From assembly GCA_964394965.1 (NCBI GenBank), contig CAYMZV010000002.1, positions 1-46,693 on the forward strand: a stretch of DNA of 46,693 bases, in the 5' to 3' direction. The first letter of the stretch is position 1. Every line of letters begins with the position of its first letter. The stretch is from an uncultured Chryseobacterium sp. GTDB taxonomy: Bacteria; Bacteroidota; Bacteroidia; Palsa-965. Shown one piece after another: positions 10,854-30,606 of the stretch. The position numbers were made by a program, and so were the translations under genes. The notes under the pieces are model-generated. The model saw nothing but the letters and a program-made list of their open reading frames with translations. It did no database searches and was not told the DNA's origin.

Positions 10854-11423
10854 TCATCCGGCAGAAGACTTGTCCAGCTTACGGCTTATTTCCTTCAGCA
10901 GGATGAATTGTTTTTCCTGTGTTTCAAAAAGCGTCTCGATCTGCTCTTCCAATAACAAATCCATTTTTTGGTGCATGCTGCGGATTTGCATTTCCGCTTT
11001 CAGGTTTATCATGTAATCATTTTCACTTCTCATCCTGTCTTTTTCCTCTTTCCGGTTTTGGCTCATCATGATGATCGGAGCCTGTAAAGCCGCAATGCAG
11101 GAAAGCACAAGATTCATGAGGATGAAAGGATAAGGATCGAATTCATAATGGGTGAGAACAATGACATTGAAAAGAATCCAGATTGTCAATATGACTCCGA
11201 ACATGATGATGAATTTCCAACTTCCCCCGAATCGCGCCACCTTATCGGAAATCTTTTGTCCCTGCGTGAGTGTTTCCATGGGAGGATGCAAAAGGTTGTG
11301 AATGATGAGTTCTTCCGCCTTGATGGTATCATTGACAATCTGATGCAACTTGTTGAGATGCCGGTGTTCGTTGGATATCAACTGGTCAATTTCATTGTTA
11401 CTCATCGGGGAAGTTGTTGTCAT
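10854..11423 (-). CDS. DUF1003 family membrane protein
   Basis: FGGSWKFIIMFGVILTIWILFNVI...FDPYPFILMNLVLSCIAALQAPIIMMSQNR is the typical DUF1003 core. The start overlaps the upstream stop (11420..11423). Confidence 0.8.
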   Translation of the reverse strand: MTTTSPMSNNEIDQLISNEHRHLNKLHQIVNDTIKAEELIIHNLLHPPMETLTQGQKISDKVARFGGSWKFIIMFGVILTIWILFNVIVLTHYEFDPYPFILMNLVLSCIAALQAPIIMMSQNRKEEKDRMRSENDYMINLKAEMQIRSMHQKMDLLLEEQIETLFETQEKQFILLKEISRKLDKSSAG

Positions 11424-12031
11424 GACGCATTTTTATTTTTCCCTTTTCGTTCCAACTCACCCATGAATACAGTGAGCTCTTTTATGAAATCATCCTGTTT
11501 CAGTGTGGATTGTTTTATATAGCCTATCATTTTCTTCAACTCATCGGGAGAATTCATTGCTTTCTCGAGTAAACTCGAAATACCCAAAATGTGGGCAATG
11601 GATTGTCGAACCTTATGCGAAGTCATGAACATCATTTCCTCCATGCCCTCAATATATTTTTTCAGATAGTCGTCCGTTTGCCGGAGTTCATCATAAGTGA
11701 TATTCAATTCAATTGTCTGCTTTTCATTTTCCTCATTTTGAAATACAAGTTCCTTGTTGGCAACAATCAATTCCGCTTCGCGATTTTGCTTCTCCCGATT
11801 TTGAAAAACAAGTTCCTTATTGGCGATGATCAACTCGGCTTCGCGTTTTCCTTTTTCTTCATTGCTGGAATGAAGCTCCTTGTTTGCCGAATCCAACTCC
11901 GCCACGACTTTTTCATTCACATCGTTTTGAATGGCCAACTCAATCTTGGTAGAAATCAACTCATCTTCACACTTCTCACCCGTTTCAATTGCTGGAACGG
12001 ATTCCTCGTGGATCAAGCCTTCTGTCTTCAT
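11420..12031 (-). CDS. Coiled-coil (21-aa repeat) protein ending in a DHp-like (HisKA-like) domain, with no ATPase domain
   Basis: Repeats of the form REAELIIANKELVFQNREKQN are followed by MFMTSHKVRQSIAHILGISSLLEKA (H-box-like). The track start 12094 lies inside the promoter motif. Met 12031 lies 5 nt past the -7-like box, which suggests a leaderless mRNA. It is a paralog of 26937..27734. Confidence 0.65.
   Translation of the reverse strand: MKTEGLIHEESVPAIETGEKCEDELISTKIELAIQNDVNEKVVAELDSANKELHSSNEEKGKREAELIIANKELVFQNREKQNREAELIVANKELVFQNEENEKQTIELNITYDELRQTDDYLKKYIEGMEEMMFMTSHKVRQSIAHILGISSLLEKAMNSPDELKKMIGYIKQSTLKQDDFIKELTVFMGELERKGKNKNAS
11681..11962. repeat. Degenerate 63-bp (21-aa) coding repeats
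   Basis: AELxxANKELxFQNxExxxR periodicity within the CDS 11420..12031. Confidence 0.7.
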
Positions 12032-12035
12032 GCTC

Positions 12036-12104
12036 CAAATTTGCGAGCCTTTCATCATGCAAGTGTTACACAACTTTGGGAATAAGTTATACAATTCACA
12101 CCTC
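12036..12104 (-). promoter_or_regulatory. Composite stress-regulon promoter element, copy d
   Basis: GAGGTGTGAATTGTATAACTTATTCCCAAAGTTGTGTAACA, 20 nt, CAAATTTG. Confidence 0.6.
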
Positions 12105-12119
12105 CAATATCAAAACAAG

Positions 12120-12149
12120 AAACACCTTCATAATAAAATGAAGGTGTTT
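12120..12149 (-). terminator. Intrinsic terminator-like hairpin after the His-rich small gene
   Basis: Perfect 12-bp stem AAACACCTTCAT / ATGAAGGTGTTT with a 6-nt loop, followed on the minus strand by CTTGTTTTG. Confidence 0.55.
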
Positions 12150-12195
12150 TAAATTTCGTCCCGACAATTATCGGTAAAAAATCAAATTGCAGTGA

Positions 12196-12450
12196 TTAAC
12201 TATTCATTGCATGATGTTTGGCATCTTCTTTCTGACACTCATTGGCAAGACATTGCTGTCCGTGAGCCTTGATTGTACTTTCAGAAGCTTTTTCGTGATT
12301 GCCCGCTTCATGGTGCTTCGCTGCATCCTGGTGATGTTGCGCTGCAGCTTCAAAATGGCTTGCTGCCTTTTTGTGGTTTTCAATCCCTTTTTTATTGTCT
12401 TCAGCGGTAACAGGAGATTGCTTTTTGATTGGTGTTGTCGTATTTGTCAT
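12196..12450 (-). CDS. Small histidine-rich helical protein (84 aa), function unknown
   Basis: AASHFEAAAQHHQDAAKHHEAGNHEKASESTIKAHG. It is monocistronic, with its own motif copy upstream and a hairpin downstream. Confidence 0.6.
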   Translation of the reverse strand: MTNTTTPIKKQSPVTAEDNKKGIENHKKAASHFEAAAQHHQDAAKHHEAGNHEKASESTIKAHGQQCLANECQKEDAKHHAMNS

Positions 12451-12491
12451 TTTGTTTATTTTTTTATTGTGAATGAATTTTCACAACGTAA

Positions 12492-12560
12492 CAAAGGTCT
12501 GTAATGACAAATATTCAAGTGTTATAGAACTTTGGGAAAGAGTTGTATAATTCACATGTC
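12492..12560 (-). promoter_or_regulatory. Composite stress-regulon promoter element, copy e
   Basis: GACATGTGAATTATACAACTCTTTCCCAAAGTTCTATAACA, 20 nt, GACCTTTG. Confidence 0.65.
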
Positions 12561-12601
12561 AGAACGGGGCTTGAAAAATGAAAGGGAAAAAGCAGAAATG
12601 A

Positions 12602-13501
12602 TTATTGGGGTTTGTCGGAAGCCACTGGCTTGGCAATTTGCGCAGGGGCAATTTTTCCGGAATGCATTTTTGCATAAGTCGCGGTAAACTCGGCGCCAAA
12701 AAACAGGATGATGGATGAATACGAAACCCACAACAGAATCAAAATGACTGAGCCGGCAGCACCATAAACAGACGCGGGCTGGGCTTTACCGAAATAAAAT
12801 GCCAGTGATATTTTTCCCATTTCAAACAACAAGCCGGTAACAATTGAACCCAACCAAACATGCTTACATTCTATTTTCGCATCGGGCAGAATCTTGAACA
12901 TCAATGCAAAAAGGAAAGATATCACCGCAAATGAAAAAATGAAGTTCAGAACATTGAAAAAAACAACACGCAAATGGGAATCGTCACCCTGCATCCAATT
13001 GCTCATCGAAGCCAGTGTCGTTGAAACTACCAATGAAATCAAAAGCAGAAAAGCGATTGCCAAAAGCAATCCGAAAGAGAAAAGCCTTGCCTTCAGTATT
13101 GGCCAAAGTCCCTTCCGAGGCACCACCTTCACTTGCCAGATTGCATTCAGGGTTTTTTGCAATTCAACAAATACGCCCGTAGCGCCAACGAGTAAAATCA
13201 CAATGCCGATAATGGAACCCAGAACGGTGGCTTTCGATTTACCGACATTGACCAGTATCGCTCCGATTTGTTTTGCCGTTTCAGCACCGAGAGTCTTTGA
13301 GACTTGCCCCAAAATATTCTGATCAACCACTTCCTTTCCGAAAAAGTATCCCGCTATGGAAAGTACCAGAATCAACAATCCCGGAATACCGAAAATGGCA
13401 TAATAGGCGATGACGGCACTTTGCCTGAATGGGTCTTTGTCATTCCATTCCTTGAAAGTTGTCTTGAATAATTCACCCAATGTTTTTATCCGATGCTGCA
13501 T
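12602..13501 (-). CDS. YihY/BrkB family membrane protein
   Basis: FKEWNDKDPFRQSAVIAYYAIFGIPGLLIL plus multiple TM helices. The track start 13537 falls inside the -7-like box (13535..13542). Met 13501 (MQHRIKTLGELF) is the first start downstream of the predicted TSS. Confidence 0.8.
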   Translation of the reverse strand: MQHRIKTLGELFKTTFKEWNDKDPFRQSAVIAYYAIFGIPGLLILVLSIAGYFFGKEVVDQNILGQVSKTLGAETAKQIGAILVNVGKSKATVLGSIIGIVILLVGATGVFVELQKTLNAIWQVKVVPRKGLWPILKARLFSFGLLLAIAFLLLISLVVSTTLASMSNWMQGDDSHLRVVFFNVLNFIFSFAVISFLFALMFKILPDAKIECKHVWLGSIVTGLLFEMGKISLAFYFGKAQPASVYGAAGSVILILLWVSYSSIILFFGAEFTATYAKMHSGKIAPAQIAKPVASDKPQ

Positions 13502-13534
13502 GGGTTGTTCCGAATTAAGTGAATGGTCATTTCG

Positions 13535-13603
13535 CAAAACTGCACATCTCAGAGCACTCCCATGTTACATAACTTTTGAAAAACATTGTATCATTCACAC
13601 CTT
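13535..13603 (-). promoter_or_regulatory. Composite stress-regulon promoter element, copy f (divergent partner of copy g)
   Basis: AAGGTGTGAATGATACAATGTTTTTCAAAAGTTATGTAACA, 20 nt, CAGTTTTG. Confidence 0.6.
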
Positions 13604-13613
13604 CCCGATTGGA

Positions 13614-13682
13614 ACAATGTGAATTATACAACTCTTTGCAGGAATTGTGTAACACCGCACTATTGTGGGTTACGCAACTTTA
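13614..13682 (+). promoter_or_regulatory. Composite stress-regulon promoter element, copy g (the only plus-strand copy)
   Basis: ACAATGTGAATTATACAACTCTTTGCAGGAATTGTGTAACA, 20 nt, CAACTTTA. The box lies 29 nt from the ATG at 13711. Confidence 0.6.
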
Positions 13683-13710
13683 GTATTCCATAAAATCAAA
13701 AACATAAAAC

Positions 13711-14175
13711 ATGAAAACCGAAAAAATAAAAATTTTCCTCGTTGATGACGATGCACTTTTTCTAAAATCACTGGAAATCGATTTTCTCCAACATGCAGAT
13801 TTTACCATTGAGACTTTTGCAACCGGTGAGCTTTGCATGAAGAGCCTGTCACACTCCCCCGATGTAATCATTCTCGATTACCATCTTGATGGCATTGTGA
13901 AAAATGCGATGAATGGCATTGAAGCGTTGGACAGGATAAAAAAATTCAATCCCGATATTCCGGTGGTGATGTTATCTTCCCAGTACAAGGTCGAGCTACA
14001 TGAAAACTGCATGCAACACCAGGCTTTTGTTTATGCGATAAAGGATGAAACCACATTCATGCAGCTGCAAAAAATCATTTCATCCATTTTCCCGAACAAA
14101 AAAAACGGGAAAGAAATCGAACTGGTGTATGGCGAGGATGCCATTCCCTTTCAACTGTCGATCATCCGGTGCTGA
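13711..14175 (+). CDS. Stand-alone receiver domain protein (paralog of 27827..28258)
   Basis: KIFLVDDDALFLKSLEIDF, VIILDYHLDG (acceptor Asp) and VVMLSSQ are present. The two paralogs are co-linear for about the first 125 residues by eye. The C-terminal tail diverges after an A8 run near 14088. Confidence 0.8.
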   Translation: MKTEKIKIFLVDDDALFLKSLEIDFLQHADFTIETFATGELCMKSLSHSPDVIILDYHLDGIVKNAMNGIEALDRIKKFNPDIPVVMLSSQYKVELHENCMQHQAFVYAIKDETTFMQLQKIISSIFPNKKNGKEIELVYGEDAIPFQLSIIRC

Positions 14176-14177
14176 TT

Positions 14178-15044
14178 TCATTTGCGGATGATTCCTTCAA
14201 GGAATTTTCTCTCTTTCAATAAATAGCAACTGCCTTCCGCAAGAATGCTCACGCTCAGGTTTTCCATCACGATTGCGGTGGAATCATTCACCACATCAAT
14301 GTTGGTTGTGCTTATTTTGTTTCCATCGATCAGGATAACCATTCCTGATCCAATACATTCGGCACGATTTCCTTCGGAAATAATCAACGCAGTGTCTTCA
14401 CCCAATCCGATGCCCAAGCACGAACGGTTCAACACAACCGCATGCGCCAATCTCGCAAAACGTCCGCGCTTGATGAAATGCGTATCAACAACAACACCAT
14501 TGATCAAGCCGAAACCCTTCGCAATTTCAATATCACCCTTGTAAAGCGCCTCACGGATCAAACCACCTCCAATGATGGTTTCGGGTATGGCCATTGCTCC
14601 GGCACTTGTTCCGCCAACAATAAAATTCTTATCGGAATAATATTTGCGTGAAATGGTTTTCAATAATTCCGTTTCTCCGATCAGTGAAACAAGTTTGTTC
14701 TGATCGCCGCCTGTAAAAAAAACAGCGTGTGCCCCCTGTATACGTTTGATTGCAATGGGATCGTGTGCATCTTCCCTGTTTTCCACTTTTATGATTCCTA
14801 CCTGCGTAAAACCTTCGCGTTTGTAGGAATCAATATAAAGCGCTTCCATTTCTTTCGGTATGGAAGAAGCCGAAGCTATAATTTCTATGATGTGATGCGT
14901 TCGTGGAATTTCCGATATGAGCGTACCCAAGATTTCGAAGTGGGTTTGAGATTCTTTCTTCCTATGGATGGTAAGATTTTCTCCGGCGATTTCACCTTTA
15001 TACTCATGCCCACCGATGATCAATAATTTTCCTTGAGGTATCAT
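14178..15044 (-). CDS. Cyanophycinase-like peptidase (family S51)
   Basis: LLIIGGHEYKGE, FFTGGDQNKL, GGTSAGAMA (nucleophile Ser) and VVDTHFIKRGRFARL match cyanophycinase motifs. Confidence 0.85.
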   Translation of the reverse strand: MIPQGKLLIIGGHEYKGEIAGENLTIHRKKESQTHFEILGTLISEIPRTHHIIEIIASASSIPKEMEALYIDSYKREGFTQVGIIKVENREDAHDPIAIKRIQGAHAVFFTGGDQNKLVSLIGETELLKTISRKYYSDKNFIVGGTSAGAMAIPETIIGGGLIREALYKGDIEIAKGFGLINGVVVDTHFIKRGRFARLAHAVVLNRSCLGIGLGEDTALIISEGNRAECIGSGMVILIDGNKISTTNIDVVNDSTAIVMENLSVSILAEGSCYLLKERKFLEGIIRK

Positions 15045-15045
15045 G

Positions 15046-16308
15046 TCATGAATGCGATTTGATTAATTCCGTAATCTTTTCAAGTCCCATTTTTATGTTT
15101 CCCTCTTCAGGCCCAAATGAAAAACGAACATGGCGATTGAATGCCGAAGCCTTTTTCGGTTGGCCGGGGTGAATGTCGAACATATAACCAGGCACACAAA
15201 TCACTTTTCGTTGCAGCGCTTCCTTGAAAAAACGGTCCGCATCATTTAATCCTGAAGGCAGTTGACTGATATCGGCCCAGATATAAAATGTGCTGTTGGC
15301 ATCGGAAGAACAAATCACCCCGTTTTTCCGAAGGGAATTCAGCATGATATTCTTTTTCCGGCTGAAAACTTTCCGCAGTGCGTGGGACTCCTTATCCACC
15401 CTTTCCGCTTCAAACAATTGCAGTGCCGCCCTTTGAATGGGCAAACTCGGTCCGCCATCAATTCCGCTTGCCACCCTTCCCAAATCATCAATGATATTTT
15501 TCGGTCCAATAACCCAAGCCAATCGCCAACCCGGATAACGAAAGGATTTCGTCAAGCCATCCACAATCAGCACCTGATCGGAATTCACATCGTCAATGAA
15601 TTCCGCAGAAGATACGGGCGCGTTTGCCGGATTCCCGTTCTCATAAATGAAGTGCGAATAAACCTCATCGACAATAAGTGTGCAGTTGTGTTTTTTCACA
15701 ACCTTCACATATTCATCCAATTCATCTCCCTTGATTACATGGCCAGTCGGATTGCAGGGATTGCTCAATAAAAAAGCATCGAGGTTGGATTTTTCAATCG
15801 CCTCGGCAAATTCGGTTGGACGCAATGAATAATTGTTTTCCCATTTTGTGGGAATGCAAACGGGAATGATGCGTTCCAATTGATAGTTGATCAGGTCTTC
15901 ATACGCCGGATATTCGGGAACCTTGTAACCCAACCGTATCGATCCGACAATTGAAAAAATCCGCGTGAGTGCAAGACGACCGCCCATGGCAATGCTTACA
16001 TTCTCGAAAGTGTATTTTGAAATTTTATTTTTGCGGTAAAGCCGGTTGTAATGGTCTGCAATTGTTTTTCTCAACAGTTCCATGCCATTCAACGGACCAT
16101 ACCTGTCATCGTCGGGTTCGATTGTAAATTCCTTTATTCTGGCCGGAGCGCCTTCCATTTCTCCCACCTCGGGTTCGCCTTGTCCCAAGTTCGCCCATTC
16201 CGGATTACCAGCATGAAAGCCGAGCTTGGCGGCTTCGTCCATCACCCAAATGACTCCAATGTCGCGCATTTCATTGAACACATTTTTTGTTTTCATTTCC
16301 TGTTTCAT
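15046..16308 (-). CDS. PLP-dependent aminotransferase, class I/II
   Basis: LSNPCNPTG, DEVYSHF and GLTKSFRYPGWRLAW (Schiff-base Lys) are present. The start overlaps the upstream stop (ATGA at 16305..16308). Confidence 0.85.
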   Translation of the reverse strand: MKQEMKTKNVFNEMRDIGVIWVMDEAAKLGFHAGNPEWANLGQGEPEVGEMEGAPARIKEFTIEPDDDRYGPLNGMELLRKTIADHYNRLYRKNKISKYTFENVSIAMGGRLALTRIFSIVGSIRLGYKVPEYPAYEDLINYQLERIIPVCIPTKWENNYSLRPTEFAEAIEKSNLDAFLLSNPCNPTGHVIKGDELDEYVKVVKKHNCTLIVDEVYSHFIYENGNPANAPVSSAEFIDDVNSDQVLIVDGLTKSFRYPGWRLAWVIGPKNIIDDLGRVASGIDGGPSLPIQRAALQLFEAERVDKESHALRKVFSRKKNIMLNSLRKNGVICSSDANSTFYIWADISQLPSGLNDADRFFKEALQRKVICVPGYMFDIHPGQPKKASAFNRHVRFSFGPEEGNIKMGLEKITELIKSHS

Positions 16309-16766
16309 TTCGATCCTGTGTTATCATTCCGTTTTTTCATCTCATATCCAAGTATTACCAAAAAATAAAAAGTGACATCACCTGTAATTTTTCCAATCAG
16401 AATGCCAAGCGTGAAATTTTTCAGAAGGAGGGGAAACAGATACATGAAAAAAGGCCGAACCAATAAACCGTCAATGATTCCGGCAGGACCGAATTCCAAA
16501 ACAATATTCCTGATGATTCCGAAAAAATCGGAAAAGGAAAAAACCTGTTTGCCGGTTTTCTTTTTTTCAACCGCAACCGATATGTTTTGAAAAAAAATGG
16601 TCGAATAAAAACCGATTGCCTCTCCAAGTGAACCTGCATAAGCCACCAGGATCGGGTTGCCGGAAAAAAAATGGGTTACGCTTGCCACGCCAATTGCCGT
16701 TATTGTTCCAACAATTTCCGCAGGCAAATACCGTTTCAGCCATTCCTTTCCTTTTTGTTTTATCAT
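16305..16766 (-). CDS. Small polytopic membrane protein, function unknown
   Basis: About four hydrophobic segments (IVGTITAIGVASVTHFF, FFMYLFPLLL, VTFYFLVILGY). Trimmed to Met 16766, which removes the overlap with the PSD-like gene. Confidence 0.55.
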   Translation of the reverse strand: MIKQKGKEWLKRYLPAEIVGTITAIGVASVTHFFSGNPILVAYAGSLGEAIGFYSTIFFQNISVAVEKKKTGKQVFSFSDFFGIIRNIVLEFGPAGIIDGLLVRPFFMYLFPLLLKNFTLGILIGKITGDVTFYFLVILGYEMKKRNDNTGSK

Positions 16767-16782
16767 TCTTGTTTCACCTTGT

Positions 16783-17928: not shown

Positions 17929-17988
17929 ATTGGATGGGGGTTAGTTTTATTTGATTCCATGCAGCTAAGTCGATAGAAGCCTTGTTCA

Positions 17989-19582: not shown

Positions 19583-19583
19583 T

Positions 19584-20429: not shown

Positions 20430-20903
20430 TCAGTTCAGGTATCTTCTCAGAATCCACGAAATCGTTTCGTGTTGTTCCATGAGTCCGGTAAGGAAATCCG
20501 CAGTTCCCGCATCGTTGAACTTTGTAGAACATGTTTCAATGTCTTTTCTCAGTTCGGTGATTATGGTTTCGTGATCTGCCAGGAGTTCCTTGATCATGTC
20601 TTTCGAGGAAAGATACTTTCCGGGCGATTCTTTCAGTGATGATAATTTTGAAAATTCCTGCATGGTTGCGATCGTCTTGCCACCCAATTTCCCAATGCGT
20701 TCGGCAACCTCATCAATCGATATTTCCAATTGTGAATATTGACCTTCAAACAATTTGTGGAGTTCCATGAAACTTTCACCGGTTACATTCCAATGCGATT
20801 TTCTTGTCTTGATGTACAATACCATTTCATTGGCCAATACAGTTGAAAGGAGAGTGATGCCATGTTTCAGGTTTTTTTCTGCAATACCGATGTTCGGTTT
20901 CAT
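20430..20903 (-). CDS. dps: Dps family DNA-protection / ferritin-like protein
   Basis: LLSTVLANEMVLYIKTRKSHWNVTGESFMELHKLFEGQY and DEVAERIGKLGG are present. Confidence 0.9.
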   Translation of the reverse strand: MKPNIGIAEKNLKHGITLLSTVLANEMVLYIKTRKSHWNVTGESFMELHKLFEGQYSQLEISIDEVAERIGKLGGKTIATMQEFSKLSSLKESPGKYLSSKDMIKELLADHETIITELRKDIETCSTKFNDAGTADFLTGLMEQHETISWILRRYLN

Positions 20904-23056: not shown

Positions 23057-23084
23057 GCATGCTGTTGCATCAAAACAAAATCAA

Positions 23085-24483: not shown

Positions 24484-24493
24484 AACGTTTTCC

Positions 24494-24805: not shown

Positions 24806-24827
24806 AATATTGATTTTTATTTTTTCG

Positions 24828-24983: not shown

Positions 24984-25034
24984 GGTTTTTGTTTTTAGGT
25001 TAGGTGAACCTGTTCATTCGGCACTGCATTTTTT

Positions 25035-25109
25035 TCAGCGCGGATCAGGGATGAAAACGGATGCAAATGCAACCAGGATTGTGAATGAACGCAGGATTGT
25101 TTTTTCCAT
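25035..25109 (-). pseudogene. Truncated duplicate of the 5' end of 24494..24805
   Basis: MEKTILRSFTILVAFASVFIPDPR then a stop, compared with MKKVILCSFTSLLAFAFIPNAAKA. The DNA similarity includes the shared string GTGAATGAAC(A/G)CAGGATT. Confidence 0.55.
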
Positions 25110-25279
25110 AACGTTGCTTTTATTTTTCTGTCAAATGATTTTACCTCCGCTGATCAATCTCAGTCAACGCTCAATTCAAATTTAAAACAGGAGAGAACCG
25201 GTCGATTGCATTATTCGTTACCATGACACATTCTGTCGTTTGCCTGATGAAAAATCCGGATATCTTGAATTGAATTGCG

Positions 25280-25435
25280 TTAGACTGTTTTGTCTCCACG
25301 GATCAGGCGAAACAATACGGCTATCAAGGCAATGACGAGAAGGATGTGAATCAATCCTCCGGCGTTATAACCCAAGTATCCGATGGCCCACAGAATCACC
25401 AGGATTACTGCAACCAAATAAAGTAGATTTCCCAT
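25280..25435 (-). CDS. lmo0937-family mini membrane protein (51 aa), copy 2
   Basis: MGNLLYLVAVILVILWAIGYLGYNAGGLIHILLVIALIAVLFRLIRGDKTV. Hand translated. Confidence 0.75.
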   Translation of the reverse strand: MGNLLYLVAVILVILWAIGYLGYNAGGLIHILLVIALIAVLFRLIRGDKTV

Positions 25436-25485
25436 TGTGTTTATTTTTTAACTCGTTAGTGATATTTTACTGATTTCGATGTTGT

Positions 25486-25926
25486 TTATTTCGCCAAGGA
25501 TTTTCCCAATTCATTTATCTCATTATTGAAATCATCCCTTTGCTTGAAGAATTCGGTTTTGAAAATGTTCCAGCTTTCAAGCGTTGCAACTTCGTACCCG
25601 TTCACTGACGCTTTCATGTCTGCATTCATTTTTTCAAGTTTTTCAAGACGTTCCTCATCCTTTTTCGCGTCGGCTGTCTTTTCTTTTGCGATTTTGAGTT
25701 TGTAGTTCATCAATTGTCGTTCGTTTTCCTCGATCATGCTCTCATATTCTGCTCTTGCCTGCTTGTGTGCTGCAATGGAATCTTCTTTGGCTTTTTCCAG
25801 GTTGTCTTGTGCAACAGCCAGATTGTCTTTTGCATCTTCCACTTTTTTTGCCGGCGATTCACAACTTGCGAAAATCGTTATGGCTGCCATGGCTATTATT
25901 GCGAATGGTGAAAATATTTTTTTCAT
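25486..25926 (-). CDS. Lipoprotein with coiled-coil character, function unknown
   Basis: Lipobox ITIFASC, then a K/E-rich helical sequence. Confidence 0.6.
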   Translation of the reverse strand: MKKIFSPFAIIAMAAITIFASCESPAKKVEDAKDNLAVAQDNLEKAKEDSIAAHKQARAEYESMIEENERQLMNYKLKIAKEKTADAKKDEERLEKLEKMNADMKASVNGYEVATLESWNIFKTEFFKQRDDFNNEINELGKSLAK

Positions 25927-25975
25927 TGTCTTTGATTTTAATCCCGAATGGTCGGGCGTTGATGGATTGTTTGAT

Positions 25976-26013
25976 ATAAAAAATACTGTCCGATCCGTTC
26001 AACCGGACAGTAT
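25976..26013 (-). terminator. Intrinsic terminator after the CsbD-like gene
   Basis: 10-bp stem ATACTGTCCG / CGGACAGTAT with an 11-nt loop, followed on the minus strand by TTTTTTAT. Confidence 0.65.
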
Positions 26014-26031
26014 GGTTAACCGCAATGAAAA

Positions 26032-26217
26032 TCAGAGTGCTGCAATGATTGCGAGCAATTCCTCTTTTGTCTTGCCAAGTTTAATTTGGATTTTAGCGAG
26101 CATTTCCTCTTTCTTGCCTTCGGCAAATAAAAGATCATTGTCGGTGAGGAATGCGAATTTTTGTTTCAACTTTCCTTTCGCCTCATTCCAGCTTCCTTTC
26201 AATTCATTCGTGTTCAT
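26032..26217 (-). CDS. CsbD-family general stress protein
   Basis: ELKGSWNEAKGKLKQKFAFLTDNDLLFAEGKKEEMLAKIQIKLGKTKEE is the typical CsbD sequence. Confidence 0.85.
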   Translation of the reverse strand: MNTNELKGSWNEAKGKLKQKFAFLTDNDLLFAEGKKEEMLAKIQIKLGKTKEELLAIIAAL

Positions 26218-26254
26218 GTTGTTTGGGTTTTAAACTTTACTGACTCTTTCTTGG

Positions 26255-26323
26255 CAAAGATGACCTACTGAAGCCTGGAATGTGTTACATGATTTATTGA
26301 TTCTGTTACATCATTCACACATT
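26255..26323 (-). promoter_or_regulatory. Composite stress-regulon promoter element, copy j
   Basis: AATGTGTGAATGATGTAACAGAATCAATAAATCATGTAACA, 20 nt, CATCTTTG. Confidence 0.6.
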
Positions 26324-26749
26324 CTATTTTTGCGAAATCAATTTGCCCGATTGGATTGTTTTATGGTTGCTGATGATGGCATAGAAATAAATACCTGAAG
26401 GAAGGCTTCCTGTTTCTATCGGTGTTGTCGTGTTGAGCAAGGCAATGGCCATCAGCTCTTCGCCCAACAGGTTGTAAATTTTCAATTGCGAATTGGTATT
26501 CAGCAGACCCGCATCATTTATTCTGATGGAGACAATCGATTCGAATGGGTTCGGGTAAATTGTAGCGGCGACCCCATCGATGGCGATGTTTTCAATTGGA
26601 TTTGAAATCCCAACGTTGTTTATTGTCCTGTTGAACTGGAAAGGGGAAATATCCGATATGCTTTCGAGTGTTGGAGCCTGTGCAAAATCCAATCTCGGGA
26701 ACATGAAAAATGTCATTACGGCAAAAGTCAATTTCAATTCCCTTTTCAT
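26324..26749 (-). CDS. Small secreted protein with a T9SS type-A C-terminal sorting domain
   Basis: Signal peptide, then ATIYPNPFESIVSIRIND...LKIYNLLGEELM...LPSGIYFYAIISNHKTIQSGKLISQK. Confidence 0.75.
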   Translation of the reverse strand: MKRELKLTFAVMTFFMFPRLDFAQAPTLESISDISPFQFNRTINNVGISNPIENIAIDGVAATIYPNPFESIVSIRINDAGLLNTNSQLKIYNLLGEELMAIALLNTTTPIETGSLPSGIYFYAIISNHKTIQSGKLISQK

Positions 26750-26788
26750 CGTGTTTCAATTCGATTGCGAATTCGTTTCCGCAACAGC

Positions 26789-26857
26789 CAAAGGTGGCCA
26801 GACTTGAAAAGGGAATTGTTACACCATTCCGGGAATCAGTTGCATGATTCACACTTG
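26789..26857 (-). promoter_or_regulatory. Composite stress-regulon promoter element, copy k
   Basis: CAAGTGTGAATCATGCAACTGATTCCCGGAATGGTGTAACA, 20 nt, CACCTTTG. Confidence 0.6.
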
Positions 26858-26882
26858 TTGTTTTCGGCTTTTCCGTGAACAT

Positions 26883-26910
26883 AAAAAAAACGCTACCGGA
26901 TAAGTAACGC
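26883..26910 (-). terminator. Probable intrinsic terminator after 26937..27734
   Basis: On the minus strand: GCGTTAC TTATCCG GTAGCGT followed by T8. The 7-bp stem includes G-U pairs. Confidence 0.45.
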
Positions 26911-26936
26911 CTTTGTCATTCCACAGGTATCGGTTG

Positions 26937-27734
26937 TCAATCCTGATGCTTCTGTTTTTTTGGGGTTTCATTGTTTCCCTCATTCGTCTCGAAATTGCAA
27001 ATGAATGTTGTCAATTCCTTTGTCAGTGTATCGAGTGCTATTGCAGATTGTTTTATATAATCCGTCAGCTTTTTCAGTTTTTCCGGAGAGTCGATTGCCT
27101 GTTCCATCAGATTCGACAAGCCTAAAATATGGGTAATCGGTTGCCTTACGCGATGTGAGATCATGAACAGCATTTTTTCCAATCCCTGAACATGTTCATC
27201 CAAAAACATTTTTGTTTTTTGCAACTCGTCATTGGAAACGATCAACTCTGCAGCACGTTTTTCTTTCTCCCTGTTTTGAAAAACCAATTCTTCATTGGCA
27301 ATGACCAATTCGGCTGCGCGTTTTTCCTTCTCCCCATTTTGAAATAAAAGTTCACTGTTGGCAACGATCAATTCAGCGGCGCGTTTTTCCTTTTCTTCAT
27401 TCTGAAATACGAGCTCCCTGTTGGCAACGATCAATTCGGCTGCGCGTTTTTCCTTCTCCCCGTTTTGAAACGCAAGCTCTTCGTTGGCAATGACCAATTC
27501 CGCTGCACGTTTTTCCTTCTCCGTGTTTTGAAACGCAAGTTCCTCGTTGGCAATGGCCAATTCCGCGGCACGTTTTTCCTTCTCCCCGTTTTGAAAAGAA
27601 AGTTTCTTGTAGGCTATGACCAATTCAGCAGCACGTTCCTCATTCTCCTTGTTCTGAAAAAAAAGCGCCCTTACGGCAGCGATTAATTCTTCTGATCGGT
27701 GAATATTATTATCGGCAATAGGCGGAGTTTGCAT
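26937..27734 (-). CDS. Coiled-coil (seven 21-aa repeats) protein ending in a DHp-like domain, with no ATPase domain
   Basis: AAELVIANEELAFQNGEKEKR repeats are followed by LFMISHRVRQPITHILGLSNLMEQA. ATG 27734 lies 4 nt from the weak -7-like box, suggesting a leaderless mRNA like its paralog. Confidence 0.75.
   Translation of the reverse strand: MQTPPIADNNIHRSEELIAAVRALFFQNKENEERAAELVIAYKKLSFQNGEKEKRAAELAIANEELAFQNTEKEKRAAELVIANEELAFQNGEKEKRAAELIVANRELVFQNEEKEKRAAELIVANSELLFQNGEKEKRAAELVIANEELVFQNREKEKRAAELIVSNDELQKTKMFLDEHVQGLEKMLFMISHRVRQPITHILGLSNLMEQAIDSPEKLKKLTDYIKQSAIALDTLTKELTTFICNFETNEGNNETPKKQKHQD
27219..27695. repeat. About 7.5 tandem 63-bp (21-aa) coding repeats
   Basis: AAELxxANxELxFQNxEKEKR periodicity, equal to three heptads. 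Confidence 0.85.
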
Positions 27735-27737
27735 ACT

Positions 27738-27806
27738 GTAAGTTTACTCACTTTAAACATTCAATTGATACATAATTCGTGAGATAACTTGCATAATTCA
27801 CACATT
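27738..27806 (-). promoter_or_regulatory. Composite stress-regulon promoter element, copy l (weak -7 box)
   Basis: AATGTGTGAATTATGCAAGTTATCTCACGAATTATGTATCA, 20 nt, AAACTTAC. Confidence 0.5.
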
Positions 27807-27826
27807 GGGAATTCCAGTGGGCACTT

Positions 27827-28258
27827 TTACATCCTATCCATATACCAACTCAATTCCTTTTCCATTCTTTTATAGCGGAAAATGGTGGTGACGATTTTTT
27901 GCAGCCGCATGAAAGCGGTTTCGCTTTTCACGACATAATCAAATGCACGATGATGCATGCAATTGATCGCAACATCGATTTTATCCTGCGAGGATAACAT
28001 GACAACCGGAATATCGGGGTTGAATGCCTTTATCTTATCCAATGTTTCCATTCCATTCATCGCATTCTTATCCATTCCATCGAGATGATAATCCAGAATG
28101 ATGACATCGGGATTGTGCGACAGATCCTTCATGCAAAGTTCGCCGGTTGCAAAAGTCTCAATTATAAAATCCGCATGTTCGAGAAATTCAATCTCCAATG
28201 ATTTTAAAAACACAGCATCATCGTCCACCAAAAAAAGCCTTATTTTCTCGTTTTTCAT
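27827..28258 (-). CDS. Stand-alone receiver domain protein
   Basis: RLFLVDDDAVFLKSLEIEF, VIILDYHLDG, VVMLSSQDK and FDYVVK are present. The start overlaps the kinase stop. Confidence 0.85.
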   Translation of the reverse strand: MKNEKIRLFLVDDDAVFLKSLEIEFLEHADFIIETFATGELCMKDLSHNPDVIILDYHLDGMDKNAMNGMETLDKIKAFNPDIPVVMLSSQDKIDVAINCMHHRAFDYVVKSETAFMRLQKIVTTIFRYKRMEKELSWYMDRM

Positions 28259-30606
28259 TGCTTCGTATTTTTAATCCGTTGAAACTCTTCTTCCAATTCT
28301 TCGCAGGCCTGTACACAGATATTTTCAAGTTGTACAATCAAGTCATTCATTCCACCGGCCTCCTGCTGCGCACTTGCAAATTGCTGGACTTTTTTTGCCA
28401 TGCTCTCATAATCCGAACTGATGCCCATGATTGAAAAGGAAGGAATCATTTTGTGTATGGTGGTGTGCAATGAATCCCAATCCTTATTGTGAAAACTCTG
28501 CTTCATCGAAAGGATCAATGGAGGAGTCTGCTCGAGATAACAGGAAATCATTTCCATCATCAATGCCGGATTTGATTTTGTGCGTTGAATCAAATAACTC
28601 AAATCAACGCTTCTTGATTTTTTATCCGGAAGATTTCCAATCACGTTGTCATTGTACTTTATCGATACGGGTTTCTTCACCAACCCGACAATCTTATTGT
28701 ACAGAACTTTTTCGTCGACAGGTTTCGCGATATAATCATTCATGCCAACCGATCTGCATTTTGCCAGATCGACGGTGGTGACATCAGCTGTCAATGCAAT
28801 GATTGGGATTTTCGAATTCATTGTATTGCGGATATATTGCGTCGCCTCGAATCCATTCATCTCCGGCATTTGCAAATCCATCAGGATGATATCGTACGAT
28901 TTCATTTGCAGTTTTTCTATGGCAATTTTCCCATTGGCGGCAATGTCGCGTTCAAATCCGAAATCGTCGAGCAGTGTTTTCATCAGCAATTGGTTGAGCG
29001 CAATGTCTTCCACCACCAACACCTTGATATTCTTCATTTCAGTATCGGCTTCGGCGGTTTCCGTCTCAAACTCCGCTTTCACTTTTGTCTTTTGAAAAGT
29101 CAATATGAAACTGAATGTGGATCCCTCGTTGATTTTGCTTTGCACCTGAACATTTCCGCCTTGCGATTCAACCAATTGTTTTACAATGGCAAGTCCCAGT
29201 CCCGTTCCACCATACAGGCGTGATGTGCCACTGGTAGCCTGCTGGAAATTCTCAAAGATGTTTTCGATTTTACTTTCACTGATGCCGATTCCGGTATCCG
29301 TAACGGCAAATTCTATTATCACCTTGTCCTCTTCTTCCTCCAACAAACGGACACTTACGGTAATTTTCCCTTCCGTTGTGAATTTCACGGCGTTGCTTAC
29401 CAAATTCAGGATGATTTGATGCAAGCGCACCGGATCACCCACCAACACATCCGGAATCCTGTTGTCATATTCCTTGACGAGTACCAGGTTTTTTTCCTGG
29501 ATTTTCGTTTCAAACAGATGAAGCATCGACGATATGGACGCTGACATCTTGAATGGTGTTTGTTCAAATGTCATCTTTCCGGCATCCACTTTTGCCAAAT
29601 CGAGAATGTCGTTGATCAATACGATCAATGCATCACCGCTCATTTTTATGGCGGTCAAATATTCCTTTTGTTTCGCCGACAATTCCGTTTTCAAAACCAC
29701 TTTTGTAAATCCGATGATCGCATTCATTGGCGTCCGGATTTCATGGCTCATGTTGGAAAGGAATTGTTGTTTTGCCTTTACGGCATCTTCAGCAATGCGT
29801 GTTGCACTTTCCGCTTTTATTTTTGCCTCTTCGGCGATTGCAGTCGCCAATTCCGCAAACACTTTTGCTTCCGTCAATTCCTTTTCATTCCTTTTCTGTT
29901 CGGTGATGTCCCTTGCAACAACCACAACTCCCAGCACATTTCCCTGTTCATCCTTGTAAACCGAACCGTTGAATAAAACATCGGTCAATTTATGATCCCT
30001 TATTGTCAACGGATAATCCGTAACAAATCCTTTTGCAAAAGCTTCCTGATAACCTTTCCGCGCTTTTTCCGGCTCGGTGAAATAATCGAAAAAATCCGTA
30101 CCGATTGATTTTTCGCGCGCCACACCGGTTATGTTTACGGACGCATTATTCATGTCCGTTATTTTTCCTGCAGGATTGATTGTGAAAAGCGGATCAAGAC
30201 TTGCCTCAATAAGACTGCGCGCATAATTGGCAACCCTCAACTCCGCCGCGCGTTTTTGCTTTTCATTGTTTTGAAACGCAAGTTCCTTGTTGGCAATGAT
30301 CAATTCGGCTGCACGTTTTCCCTTTTCCTCATTTTGAAATAAAAGTTCCTTGTTCGCAATCACCAATTCATCGGCACGTTTTTCCTTCTCCTCATTTTGA
30401 AATAAAAGTTCCTTGTTCGCAATCACCAACTCATCGGCGCGTTTTCCCTTTTCCACATTCTGGAATGCGAGTTCCTTGTTGGCAATGATCAATTCGGCCG
30501 CACGCTTTTCCTTCTCTTCGTTTTGAAAAGCAAGTTCCTTGTTGGCATCATCCAACTCATTTGATTTTTTCCTTTTAGCCATTTTCGGTTGTGATGCTGT
30601 TTTCAT
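28255..30606 (-). CDS. Hybrid sensor histidine kinase (21-aa coiled-coil repeats, PAS, HisKA, HATPase, REC, Hpt)
   Basis: About five ANKELAFQNEEKEKRAAELII repeats are followed by PAS LIEASLDPLFTINPAGKITDMN. Also present are FLSNMSHEIRTPMNAIIGF, GGTGLGLAIVKQLVESQGG, REC VLVVEDIALN...DIILMDLQMPEMNG and an Hpt-like HKMIPSFSIMGI. Confidence 0.9.
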   Translation of the reverse strand: MKTASQPKMAKRKKSNELDDANKELAFQNEEKEKRAAELIIANKELAFQNVEKGKRADELVIANKELLFQNEEKEKRADELVIANKELLFQNEEKGKRAAELIIANKELAFQNNEKQKRAAELRVANYARSLIEASLDPLFTINPAGKITDMNNASVNITGVAREKSIGTDFFDYFTEPEKARKGYQEAFAKGFVTDYPLTIRDHKLTDVLFNGSVYKDEQGNVLGVVVVARDITEQKRNEKELTEAKVFAELATAIAEEAKIKAESATRIAEDAVKAKQQFLSNMSHEIRTPMNAIIGFTKVVLKTELSAKQKEYLTAIKMSGDALIVLINDILDLAKVDAGKMTFEQTPFKMSASISSMLHLFETKIQEKNLVLVKEYDNRIPDVLVGDPVRLHQIILNLVSNAVKFTTEGKITVSVRLLEEEEDKVIIEFAVTDTGIGISESKIENIFENFQQATSGTSRLYGGTGLGLAIVKQLVESQGGNVQVQSKINEGSTFSFILTFQKTKVKAEFETETAEADTEMKNIKVLVVEDIALNQLLMKTLLDDFGFERDIAANGKIAIEKLQMKSYDIILMDLQMPEMNGFEATQYIRNTMNSKIPIIALTADVTTVDLAKCRSVGMNDYIAKPVDEKVLYNKIVGLVKKPVSIKYNDNVIGNLPDKKSRSVDLSYLIQRTKSNPALMMEMISCYLEQTPPLILSMKQSFHNKDWDSLHTTIHKMIPSFSIMGISSDYESMAKKVQQFASAQQEAGGMNDLIVQLENICVQACEELEEEFQRIKNTKQ
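30226..30561. repeat. Five tandem 63-bp (21-aa) coding repeats
   Basis: Same repeat family as 27219..27695 and 11681..11962. Confidence 0.85.

What the first reader, a model, noticed from the sequence alone, without database searches (positions are those of the whole stretch)
11420..30606. A 21-residue coiled-coil repeat family links one hybrid kinase to two kinase-less DHp proteins
Three proteins carry tandem 63-bp repeats that encode AAELxIANKELxFQNxEKEKR, equal to three heptads. They have about 4 (11681..11962), about 7.5 (27219..27695) and 5 (30226..30561) copies.

In the kinase, the repeats precede PAS-HisKA-HATPase-REC-Hpt. In the two paralogs (11420..12031 and 26937..27734), the repeats lead straight into a DHp-like helix pair with an H-box-like SH(K/R)VRQ(S/P)I(A/T)HILG motif. 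The protein then ends without an ATPase domain.

Each paralog has its own motif copy and appears leaderless. A stand-alone DHp with the same zipper as the kinase could heterodimerise with it. It could then act as an inhibitor, a phosphate shuttle or a scaffold. I do not know of a characterised function for this repeat or for this architecture.
Basis: partly seen in the sequence, partly recalled or inferred. Interest (0 to 1): 0.66.

Follow-up and report, generated by a model that had tools for sequence, protein, structure and literature searches.

The report
Kinase-less histidine-kinase stubs with repeat coils
Two small genes encode the phosphate-accepting helix pair of a bacterial sensor kinase without its ATP-using half, fed by a 21-residue repeated helix; they are complete genes from a large, unstudied Bacteroidota family, and most likely pass on or remove phosphate rather than add it.

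Summary
Three minus-strand ORFs, and no other reading frame in the window, carry in-frame 63-bp repeats encoding AAELxIANKELxFQNxEKEKR. One is a hybrid kinase (coil-PAS-HisKA-HATPase-REC-Hpt). The other two (P1, P2) run from the repeats into a HisKA-like helical hairpin and then stop.

They are not gene fragments. No ATPase remnant exists in the window, and a terminator-like hairpin follows P2. A profile of the C-terminal domain finds 2070 cluster representatives. In all 150 best hits the domain is C-terminal, and none of the 148 hits scanned has HATPase_c. Their inputs are this coil, PAS, CHASE3 or REC.

The His is 98% conserved. The acidic residue that HisKA autokinase activity needs is replaced by Lys/Arg.

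The repeat is a widespread signalling module. It stays in fixed heptad phase with the His, and its copy number varies in 21-residue steps between orthologs.

Best reading: a non-kinase DHp station, either a phosphotransferase or a phosphatase acting on receiver domains, placed in phosphorelay and stress-gene neighbourhoods.

Recurrent co-location with coil kinases favours it. Domain geometry and the repeat's presence in many other proteins count against it.

Verdict: a new variant of the known but uncharacterised 'HisKA, no HATPase' class.

The parts
11420..12031 (-). P1: a coil-plus-DHp-only protein of 203 aa from the ATG at 12031. Alternative starts are at 12055, 12058 and 12094. The predicted phospho-acceptor is His139 (codon 11615-11617).
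   Evidence: Translation. Pfam HisKA 16.3 bits, below threshold. The AF2 model has pLDDT 90.6, with helix 19-158, a turn, and helix 162-202. The His is invariant in the 40-sequence alignment A3.
11717..11905 (-). P1 repeat array: three clean 63-bp (21-aa) units. More degenerate units flank it, out to about 11681-11962.
10854..11423 (-). DUF1003 membrane protein gene. Its start overlaps the P1 stop by 4 bp, so the two are probably co-transcribed.
   Evidence: Pfam DUF1003, E 3e-39. The same pairing of a DHp-only gene followed by DUF1003 (50% identity) occurs in L040.
26937..27734 (-). P2: a coil-plus-DHp-only protein of 265 aa. The predicted phospho-acceptor is His194 (codon 27153-27155).
   Evidence: Translation. 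Pfam HisKA 28.0 bits against a cut-off of 26.9. The identical protein is called on 4 metagenome contigs. It is the ortholog of the Flavobacterium coil-DHp gene in the stress and ice-binding block.
27255..27632 (-). P2 repeat array: six clean units. With the degenerate and half units it spans about 27219-27695.
26886..26914 (-). Terminator-like hairpin (12 pairs plus a T-run) 23 nt after the P2 stop. It probably ends the HK-REC-P2 transcription unit.
   Evidence: This is a consensus scan only.
27827..28258 (-). Single-domain response regulator REC143, lying between the kinase and P2.
   Evidence: Pfam Response_reg. The family is extremely conserved: the top 120 clusters are 87-92% identical. 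The order AraC, coil-HK, REC143 is conserved in L084 and L086.
28255..30606 (-). Hybrid histidine kinase of 783 aa: coil repeats, PAS, HisKA, HATPase_c, REC and an Hpt-like C-terminus.
30250..30564 (-). Kinase repeat array: five clean units. A partial sixth unit extends it to about 30226.
30615..31160 (-). AraC-type regulator of about 181 aa from the ATG. It is orthologous to the regulators next to coil kinases in L006 (83%), L051 (64%) and L039 (64%).
13711..14175 (+). A second single-domain response regulator, 72% identical to REC143, lying 1.7 kb from P1.
6466..10573 (-). Paralogous phosphorelay downstream of P1 and DUF1003: a PASx3 protein (9347-10573), HisKA-HATPase-REC (7854-9335), Hpt (7481-7849), REC (7033-7503) and REC (6466-6990).
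   Evidence: Pfam. Each PAS domain is 71% identical to the PAS of the coil kinase, and the kinase cores are 46% identical.
26032..26217 (-). CsbD-like stress protein gene. It is part of the neighbourhood conserved with the coil-DHp gene in about 30 Flavobacterium genomes.

Best explanation
P1 and P2 are complete members of a large Bacteroidota family of sensor proteins. These proteins end in a histidine-bearing DHp (HisKA-like) helical hairpin and have no ATP-binding domain. I call this domain DHpX.

Shown here:
- The genes are intact.
- The domain is always C-terminal and never comes with HATPase_c.
- The His, Arg(+3), Pro(+5), Ile(+9) and Gly(+11) are nearly invariant.
- The residue next to the His is basic rather than acidic.
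- The 21-residue repeat forms one continuous helix with DHp helix 1, at a fixed heptad and repeat phase.

Inferred:
- The proteins form DHp-type dimers that cannot phosphorylate themselves.
- They act instead on receiver (REC) domains. They could do so as histidine phosphotransferases, which take phosphate from one REC and pass it on as Spo0B, ChpT or PhyT do. Or they could act as REC phosphatases or phosphate sinks.
- This activity is gated by the conformation of the N-terminal coiled-coil array. The array plays the input role that PAS, CHASE3 or REC domains play in other family members.

In this window each paralog sits beside a hybrid-kinase, Hpt and single-domain-REC phosphorelay, inside a stress-gene neighbourhood. 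That relay is the likeliest source or target of the phosphate.
For: Family and integrity:
- The profile search finds 2070 representatives at E<1e-3 and 349 at E<1e-10. In all 150 best hits the domain lies at the C-terminus, in proteins of 70-826 aa.
- Pfam on 148 of them: 0 with HATPase_c, 96 with HisKA, about 30 with PAS, 11 with CHASE3 and 5 with REC.
- The window has no catalytic-domain remnant. A terminator-like hairpin follows P2.

DHp nature:
- The profile hits solved DHp domains: ThkA 3a0r at E 7e-6, and 7z8n/7n0e.
- The AF2 model is a helix-turn-helix hairpin with pLDDT 90.6.

Chemistry:
- Across 192 members, His is 98% conserved. H+1 is K 65%, R 13%, E 7%. H+4 is Q 70%.
- Willett & Kirby 2012 (PMC3510030) showed that the acidic H+1 residue is needed only for kinase activity, and that Thr/Asn at H+4 is needed only for phosphatase activity.
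- Losing the acid while keeping the His fits an acceptor or phosphatase that does not autophosphorylate.

Coil coupling:
- The distance from the last repeat to the His is 48 (+21n) residues in 121 of 127 coil-DHpX proteins. In 125 of 127 it equals 6 mod 7.
- Coil kinases share that heptad phase in 21 of 25 cases.

Context:
- REC, HATPase_c and HisKA are the commonest families among 146 neighbouring genes.
- An HK-REC-[REC-PAS-DHpX] cassette recurs in 5 Flavobacterium loci.
- Both window paralogs adjoin hybrid-kinase relays, and each has a copy of one REC subfamily nearby.

Precedent:
- PhyT transfers phosphate from a single-domain REC to PhyR through a conserved His (PMC5898713).
- Galperin 2018 proposed acceptor, transfer or phosphatase roles for archaeal 'HisKA, no HATPase' proteins (PMC5847659).
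Against: - There is no biochemical evidence. The direction of phosphate flow and the partner are unknown.
- H+4 is not invariant (Q 70%; K, L, H and others occur). A conserved phosphatase residue is therefore not established.
- Most DHpX genes (about 60 of 80 loci) have no two-component gene within two genes.
- Adjacency to REC143 is not conserved. Relatives L084 and L086 carry a CheB/CheR-PAS kinase at that position and no DHpX within 7 kb. Only 1 of 80 DHpX loci has a REC143-type gene within 8 kb.
- The hybrid kinase already has its own Hpt domain, so an extra His station is not obviously needed.
- Foldseek against the PDB gave no significant match (best E 0.25). The top hit was nevertheless the HK853 DHp.
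Confidence: 0.5

Rival explanations
1. The DHp-only proteins pair with the repeat-bearing kinase through the shared coiled-coil repeats. They would then be phosphorylated in trans by its catalytic domain, or would inhibit or scaffold it. RetS does something comparable with GacS (my own knowledge).
For: - Coil kinase and coil-DHpX lie in one neighbourhood in at least five lineages: the window, L039, L051, L006 and L018. An orthologous AraC regulator is found with them in four of these (all but L018).
- The His is in the same heptad phase relative to the repeats in both protein classes.
- In L039 and L051 the kinase coil also runs straight into its DHp, so a parallel heterodimer is geometrically conceivable there.
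- Ile6 and Phe13 are conserved at the outward-facing f positions. This could support higher-order coil-coil packing.
Against: - In the window kinase a PAS domain separates the coil from the DHp.
- The His lies 14 residues further from the last repeat in DHpX than in coil kinases: 48 against 34.
- The DHp sequences are divergent.
- Repeat numbers in co-located pairs are unmatched.
- The repeat is shared by hundreds of proteins with other outputs.
- 35 of 89 DHpX proteins lack the repeat.
- Most DHpX genes have no coil kinase nearby.
Confidence: 0.15
2. The domain has lost phosphoryl chemistry. It serves only as a signal-dependent dimerisation or protein-binding output, for example by sequestering a receiver protein or the AraC-type regulator. 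On this view the conserved His would be structural.
For: - There is no catalytic domain, and no universally conserved two-component neighbour.
- The canonical HisKA catalytic residues at H+1 and H+4 are both replaced.
- Galperin 2018 also raises protein-protein interaction roles for REC-PAS-HisKA proteins.
Against: - 98% conservation of the His, together with the flanking Ser(-1), Arg(+3) and Pro(+5) of the H-box, is far more than a structural helix needs.
- The His sits at a solvent-exposed heptad position (inferred from the register).
Confidence: 0.13
3. The paralogs are 5' remnants of disrupted kinase genes, that is, pseudogenes.
For: One full kinase with a related H-box (SHDVRQP) and a catalytic domain exists (L073, 408 aa). 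The family therefore probably descends from real kinases.
Against: - No catalytic-domain remnant exists anywhere in the window outside the two kinases.
- The downstream genes are DUF1003 and a T9SS-tail protein.
- A terminator-like hairpin follows P2.
- The same C-terminal end is seen in all 150 best family hits and in about 80 genomes.
- Purifying selection acts on the repeats.
Confidence: 0.02

Closest known systems
'HisKA, no HATPase' non-enzymatic HK-like proteins (Galperin et al. 2018, PMC5847659; called 'possible incomplete histidine kinase' in P2CS)
   Same: An N-terminal sensor module is followed by a C-terminal HisKA-like domain with a conserved His and no HATPase_c. REC-PAS-HisKA variants also exist. 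The function is untested in both cases.
   Different: That class was described for Archaeoglobi and Methanomicrobia with PAS or GAF inputs. This one is a Bacteroidota family with its own H-box (S-H-K/R-V-R-Q-P, basic at H+1). Its usual input is a copy-number-variable 21-residue coiled-coil array, and it is often the whole protein at 130-400 aa.
Spo0B / ChpT / PhyT histidine phosphotransferases built on a kinase-like DHp
   Same: A DHp-type helical hairpin with a conserved His and no autokinase activity, placed between receiver domains in a relay. For PhyT the route is kinase, single-domain REC, His protein, then response regulator (PMC5898713).
   Different: Spo0B and ChpT keep a C-terminal pseudo-catalytic alpha/beta domain (my own knowledge). 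PhyT is a membrane HWE/HisKA_2-type protein. P1 and P2 end right after DHp helix 2. No sequence relationship beyond generic HisKA was found, and phosphotransfer has not been demonstrated.
RetS-GacS kinase heterodimerisation (my own knowledge, not checked here)
   Same: One sensor protein modulates a bona fide kinase by direct helix-helix pairing.
   Different: RetS pairs through its DHp and retains its catalytic and receiver domains. Here the proposed contact is an N-terminal repeat array shared by many proteins, and no interaction evidence exists.
Signalling helices and coiled-coil linkers of sensor kinases (S-helix, DesK two-helix coiled coil) and coiled-coil thermosensors such as TlpA (my own knowledge)
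   Same: A continuous helix in heptad register with DHp helix 1. Polar residues in core positions (Asn at two of three a positions, Lys at one d) suggest a marginally stable, switchable coil.
   Different: Those linkers are single short segments. This is a tandem array of near-identical 21-residue units, from about 1.5 to at least 12 here and up to 16 in related kinases. Almost every position is conserved, and copy number varies between orthologs.

Membership tests
HisKA (Pfam PF00512) DHp domain | Score at or above Pfam's gathering threshold (26.9 bits) | tested here: inconclusive
   P2 scores 28.0 bits and passes. P1 scores 16.3 bits and fails. 96 of 148 family representatives hit HisKA at E<=1e-3. 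The family profile hits solved DHp domains (ThkA, E 7e-6).
HisKA (Pfam PF00512) DHp domain | Conserved phospho-acceptor His in an H-box on helix 1 of a helical hairpin | tested here: met
   His is present in 98% of 192 members. The AF2 model shows helix, turn, helix with the His on the first helix.
HisKA (Pfam PF00512) DHp domain | H-E/D-x-x-T/N catalytic motif: the acid is needed for kinase activity and Thr/Asn for phosphatase activity (PMC3510030) | tested here: not met
   H+1 is K 65%, R 13% and E 7%. H+4 is Q 70%. P1 has HKVRQ and P2 has HRVRQ.
Sensor histidine kinase (functional autokinase) | HATPase_c catalytic ATP-binding domain C-terminal to the DHp | tested here: not met
   0 of 148 representatives have it. 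The domain is terminal in all 150 best hits. tblastn finds no remnant in the window.
'HisKA, no HATPase' non-enzymatic HK-like class (Galperin 2018) | N-terminal sensor or input module, a C-terminal HisKA-like domain with a conserved His, and no HATPase | tested here: met
Spo0B/ChpT-type phosphotransferase | DHp four-helix bundle followed by a C-terminal pseudo-catalytic alpha/beta domain | tested here: not met
   P1 and P2 end about 60 residues after the His. The AF2 model shows only two helices.
Spo0B/ChpT-type phosphotransferase | Reversible phosphotransfer between receiver domains through the His | not testable with these tools
   This needs in vitro phosphotransfer assays.
Hpt (PF01627) monomeric phosphotransfer domain | Match to the Hpt profile (four-helix bundle within one chain) | tested here: not met
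   Neither P1 nor P2 hits Hpt at E<=1. The real Hpt modules of the window are at 7481-7849 and at the kinase C-terminus.
Parallel coiled coil (heptad repeat) | Period of 7 with hydrophobic a/d positions, forming a continuous helix | tested here: inconclusive
   The 21-residue unit equals three heptads. AF2 models it as one helix (residues 19-158, pLDDT about 98). The consensus register is a = A1, N8, N15 and d = L4, L11, K18, so half the core positions are polar. Oligomeric state and orientation could not be tested.

The most novel reading that the evidence does not exclude
The repeat array is itself the sensor. It would be a marginally stable coiled coil, with Asn at two of three a positions, Lys at one d position and a fully polar third heptad. 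Its stability, and so its switching point, would be tuned by copy number.

Copy number changes in exact 21-residue steps between orthologs: protein lengths 188 to 377 aa at one Flavobacterium locus, and 5 to 16 copies in the kinase orthologs.

The array would report a physical variable such as temperature, freezing or dehydration to an ATPase-less DHp and to kinases carrying the same array. Together these would form a Bacteroidota cold or general-stress phosphorelay.

The gene neighbourhood fits this idea. It holds ice-binding-protein, CsbD, YtxH, catalase and Dps genes, and many of the genomes come from glacier or polar isolates.
Probability: 0.15. Interest if true: 0.85.

Novelty: new variant of a known kind. 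Interest (0 to 1): 0.58.

Why it matters
Kinase-like proteins that keep the phospho-acceptor helix pair but lack the ATPase are counted in genome censuses. They are usually mis-annotated as kinases and have not been studied.

This family is large: 2070 cluster representatives at E<1e-3 and 349 at E<1e-10, each standing for a 50%-identity cluster. It has a distinctive and informative H-box. Many members are small enough (130-270 aa) to purify. It offers a tractable way to find out what such proteins do.

The 21-residue repeat is a second, uncatalogued signalling module. It is extremely conserved in sequence, phase-locked to the DHp histidine, present in kinases, a CheB/CheR-fusion kinase and proteins with GGDEF or HD-GYP domains, and variable in copy number between close relatives. 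If it proves to be a tunable physical sensor, it would be a new input principle for two-component signalling and a useful engineering part.

If the family turns out to be only a phosphate sink, the finding is still a useful annotation correction for Bacteroidota.

Tried and rejected
- I guessed that the conserved 563-aa and 677-aa genes downstream of the Flavobacterium orthologs were KdpA and KdpB. Pfam shows a Big_5/ice-binding protein and an OmpA-like protein instead.
- Foldseek of the P1 model against the PDB gave nothing significant (best E 0.25). Helical hairpins are not discriminating.
- Literature searches for the motif strings, for 'incomplete histidine kinase'/DHp/Bacteroidetes, and for ice-binding protein with histidine kinase in Flavobacterium found nothing on this family.
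- I tested whether the adjacent REC143 is the conserved partner. The REC143 family is highly conserved and always follows the AraC and coil-kinase pair. The next gene in relatives, however, is a CheB/CheR-PAS kinase rather than DHpX. Only 1 of 80 DHpX loci has a REC143-type gene within 8 kb. The specific pairing is therefore not supported.
- I looked for concerted evolution of repeats within genes. Identity within a gene and between genes is similar (0.77-0.79), so there is no sign of recent homogenisation in the window. Some Flavobacterium orthologs do show near-identical neighbouring units.
- The word-index homolog search with the C-terminal domain alone found only 2 proteins. The exhaustive profile search was needed.
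- I did not attempt a fused-chain 'pseudo-multimer' prediction.

Full report
**1. The observation**

The window has 43% G+C and carries type IX secretion genes, so it comes from a Bacteroidota genome. Three minus-strand ORFs carry 63-bp tandem repeats.

Tandem Repeats Finder reports arrays at 11721-11850, 27232-27665 and 30227-30552. Parsed in register, they give 3, 6 and 5 clean 21-residue units, plus degenerate or partial flanking units.

A six-frame scan finds the motif nowhere else in the window. Identity between units is 0.83 / 0.82 / 0.58 at codon positions 1 / 2 / 3. Selection therefore acts on the peptide, and the copies are old.

The 783-aa protein is a hybrid kinase with coil, PAS, HisKA, HATPase_c and REC. 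Pfam did not call its Hpt domain. Its C-terminus is nonetheless homologous to the stand-alone Hpt protein at 7481-7849 (E 2e-11, histidines aligned).

P1 (11420-12031) and P2 (26937-27734) run from the repeats into SHKVRQSIAHILG and SHRVRQPITHILG respectively. Each ends about 60 residues later. P2 passes Pfam's HisKA threshold and P1 does not.

**2. The paralogs are complete genes, not fragments**

- tblastn with both catalytic domains at E up to 50 finds only the two real kinases.
- The genes downstream are a DUF1003 membrane protein, overlapping P1 by 4 bp, and a T9SS-tail protein.
- A terminator-like hairpin follows P2 by 23 nt. Another lies just upstream of P1.
- I built a profile from the C-terminal domains of P1, P2 and two homologs and scored it against 1.84 billion cluster representatives. 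It finds 2070 proteins at E<1e-3 and 349 at E<1e-10.
- In all 150 best hits the match lies at the extreme C-terminus, in proteins of 70-826 aa.
- Of 148 of these scanned with Pfam, none has HATPase_c. 96 hit HisKA. The N-terminal parts are PAS (about 30), CHASE3 (11), REC (5) or the repeat.

This is therefore a family of sensors that ends in an ATPase-less DHp. I call the domain DHpX.

Eighty genomic loci recovered with the profile are all Bacteroidota: Flavobacterium, Pedobacter, Mucilaginibacter, Ferruginibacter, Cytophaga, Chryseolinea and others. Several genomes hold more than one copy.

**3. What the domain looks like**

The profile matches solved DHp domains: ThkA at E 7e-6, and 7z8n/7n0e. 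AlphaFold2 on P1 with 40 homologs gives pLDDT 90.6. The model has one unbroken helix from residue 19 to 158, running through the repeats and the H-box, then a three-residue turn and helix 162-202. Foldseek gives no significant match, though the top hit is the HK853 DHp.

Conservation across 192 members:

| Position | Residue and frequency |
|---|---|
| His | 98% |
| H+1 | K 65%, R 13%, E 7% |
| H+3 | R 98% |
| H+4 | Q 70% |
| H+5 | P 95% |
| H+9 | I 95% |
| H+11 | G 98% |

In canonical HisKA the acidic H+1 residue is needed only for autophosphorylation, and Thr/Asn at H+4 only for phosphatase activity (Willett & Kirby 2012, PMC3510030). DHpX has kept the His, lost the kinase-specific acid, and carries an amide side chain at the phosphatase position in most members.

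One full kinase with a similar H-box (SHDVRQP) and a catalytic domain exists in L073. The family therefore probably descends from real kinases.

**4. What the repeat is**

It is not private to these three proteins. A search with the kinase's array returned 633 proteins. They include PAS, GGDEF, HD-GYP and HisKA_3 proteins, ordinary kinases, and about 40 coil-plus-DHpX proteins of 130-190 aa. Pfam and NCBIfam have no model for it.

The consensus is A-A-E-L-[IV]-I-A-N-K-E-L-A-F-Q-N-E-E-K-E-K-R, with most positions 90% or more conserved. That is far more conservation than a generic coiled coil needs.

The best heptad register puts A1, N8 and N15 at a positions and L4, L11 and K18 at d positions. 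Half the core is then polar. Ile6 and Phe13 fall at the outward f position. This register is my inference.

The array is phase-locked to the DHp:
- The distance from the last full repeat to the His is 48 (+21n) residues in 121 of 127 coil-DHpX proteins. It equals 6 mod 7 in 125 of 127.
- In coil kinases of the SHDLQEPLR type the distance is 34 (+21n). It also equals 6 mod 7, in 21 of 25.

The array therefore behaves as a rigid extension of DHp helix 1 on its input side, not as a detachable zipper.

Copy number is labile. At one orthologous Flavobacterium locus the protein lengths form the series 188, 209, 230, 272, 293, 315, 336, 357 and 377 aa, in steps of 21. Orthologs of the window kinase carry 5, 10, 13 or 16 copies.

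**5. Context**

*Locus 2.* The gene order is AraC-type regulator, coil kinase, single-domain REC143, P2, terminator, T9SS-tail protein, CsbD.

*Locus 1.* The gene order is P1, DUF1003, PASx3 protein, HisKA-HATPase-REC, Hpt, REC, REC. Two unannotated ORFs (no Pfam match), a catalase, another REC and an ice-binding-like protein lie beyond. A REC 72% identical to REC143 lies 1.7 kb on the other side of P1.

The PAS domains and kinase cores of the two loci are paralogous, at 71% and 46% identity. The window thus holds two related phosphorelay modules, each with its own DHpX protein.

*Elsewhere:*
- About 30 Flavobacterium genomes keep the P2 ortholog in one block: CsbD, a small membrane protein, YtxH, two unknown genes, coil-DHpX, a Big_5/ice-binding protein, an OmpA-like protein, SnoaL and DinB.
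- In L006 the AraC ortholog (83% identity) and the coil kinase lie in that same neighbourhood. In L018 the kinase ortholog (73%) and a REC143 ortholog (70%) do.
- L039 and L051 have AraC, coil-DHpX, coil kinase and, in L051, a REC.
- Five Flavobacterium loci carry the cassette HK, REC, REC-PAS-DHpX.
- Among 146 neighbouring genes from about 45 distinct contexts, the commonest Pfam families are Response_reg (9), HATPase_c (8) and HisKA (8). Most DHpX genes are nevertheless orphans.
- The REC143 family is very highly conserved: the top 120 clusters are 87-92% identical. The trio of AraC, coil kinase and REC143 is conserved in relatives. There, however, the next gene is a giant CheB/CheR-PAS kinase, itself carrying 4-6 repeats, and not DHpX.

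The specific REC143-P2 pairing is therefore a feature of this lineage only.

**6. Mechanism**

*Shown:*
- P1 and P2 are intact.
- The DHp is terminal and has no ATPase.
- The His is retained and the kinase-specific acid is lost.
- The input helix is phase-locked to the DHp.
- Two-component genes are the commonest families among neighbouring genes (no statistical test was run).

*Inferred:*
- The proteins form DHp dimers that cannot autophosphorylate and that act on receiver domains.
- They do so either as a His station that shuttles phosphate between RECs, or as a REC phosphatase or sink. Precedents for the first role are PhyT (PMC5898713) and Spo0B/ChpT (my own knowledge).
- The coil array, or PAS, CHASE3 or REC in other family members, sets the activity.

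I give this model about 0.5. The near-invariant His favours transfer through a phospho-His intermediate. The common Gln at H+4 keeps the phosphatase option open.

Recurrent co-location argues for it. The following argue against it:
- the PAS domain between coil and DHp in this kinase
- a 14-residue offset of the His
- divergent DHp sequences
- unmatched repeat numbers in co-located pairs
- the repeat's presence in many other proteins
- the many DHpX proteins without any repeat

A purely structural, non-phosphoryl role gets about 0.13. The pseudogene reading is effectively excluded.

**7. Comparison with what is known, and novelty**

The general class, 'HisKA, no HATPase', was noted in archaeal censuses and in P2CS. 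It was explicitly described as unstudied, with acceptor, transfer or phosphatase roles suggested (PMC5847659).

This Bacteroidota family fits that class but differs in three ways:
- its own H-box
- frequent minimal architecture, in which the whole protein is coil plus DHp
- an uncatalogued 21-residue repeat input with variable copy number

It fails the defining features of a functional kinase, of Spo0B/ChpT (no pseudo-catalytic domain) and of Hpt. I rate it a new variant of a known kind.

The most novel reading that I cannot exclude is that the repeat array is a copy-number-tunable physical sensor, for example of cold or freezing, in a Bacteroidota stress phosphorelay. The polar core, the copy-number variation, and the ice-binding and stress-gene neighbourhood in many cold-habitat isolates all suggest it. 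None of these tests it, and the habitat signal is confounded by phylogeny.

Noticed in passing
window 9519-10525 (ORF 9347-10573, minus strand): A 351-bp tandem repeat (2.9 copies, 91% identical) encodes three near-identical PAS domains. Each is about 71% identical to the single PAS of the coil kinase. This looks like a recent domain triplication.
   Followed up: partly
window 9335-9349: The PASx3 ORF ends at 9347 in a 'TVGRELKMIELKKEI' motif. The HisKA-HATPase-REC ORF starts at 9335 in another frame. The pair looks like the C-terminal half of the giant CheB/CheR-PAS kinases seen in relatives (L084, L086). It is either a natural split or a frameshift, possibly an assembly error in the repeats.
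   Followed up: partly
window about 9060-9190 (N-terminus of ORF 7854-9335): A second, unrelated 21-residue repeat, ALLNILDDYSEEKxHxExxQR, occurs in three copies just upstream of the HisKA domain of the second kinase. So another three-heptad repeat also feeds a DHp.
   Followed up: no
window 27827-28258; also 13711-14175, 6466-6990, 7033-7503 and 3691-4083: The window holds five single-domain response regulators. The REC143 family is unusually conserved: the top 120 database clusters are 87-92% identical. In relatives it always follows an AraC regulator and a coil-PAS hybrid kinase. This hints at a hub regulator.
   Followed up: partly
Loci L004-L054 (about 30 Flavobacterium genomes), around position 8000: Orthologs of P2 differ in length by exact multiples of 21 aa (188 to 377 aa). 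They sit in a conserved block with CsbD, YtxH, a Big_5/ice-binding protein and an OmpA-like protein. Many of the source strains are glacier or polar isolates.
   Followed up: partly
window 2397-5618, 20430-20903 and 26032-26217: The window has a stress-island flavour. It carries an ice-binding-like protein, a catalase, a Dps/ferritin-like protein, CsbD and an Mla lipid-transport operon near the signalling genes.
   Followed up: no
window 42530-45965: A 213-bp tandem repeat (16 copies, 86% identical), probably 71-aa repeats. It likely belongs to a very large SprB/adhesin-type type IX secretion cargo gene that is not listed as a closed ORF. The reading frame was not resolved.
   Followed up: no
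window 32745-32830: The spacer between the PorP/SprF gene and the 1062-aa (1079 aa from the upstream TTG start) CHU_C/SprB adhesin gene holds short 8-bp repeat runs. These form an inverted repeat: GGTTGGAAAGTTG ... CAACTTTCCAACC.
   Followed up: no
window 10854-11423; L040 8547-9248: A DUF1003 membrane protein gene directly follows a coil-DHp-only gene in two distant lineages. In the window the two overlap by 4 bp.
   Followed up: no
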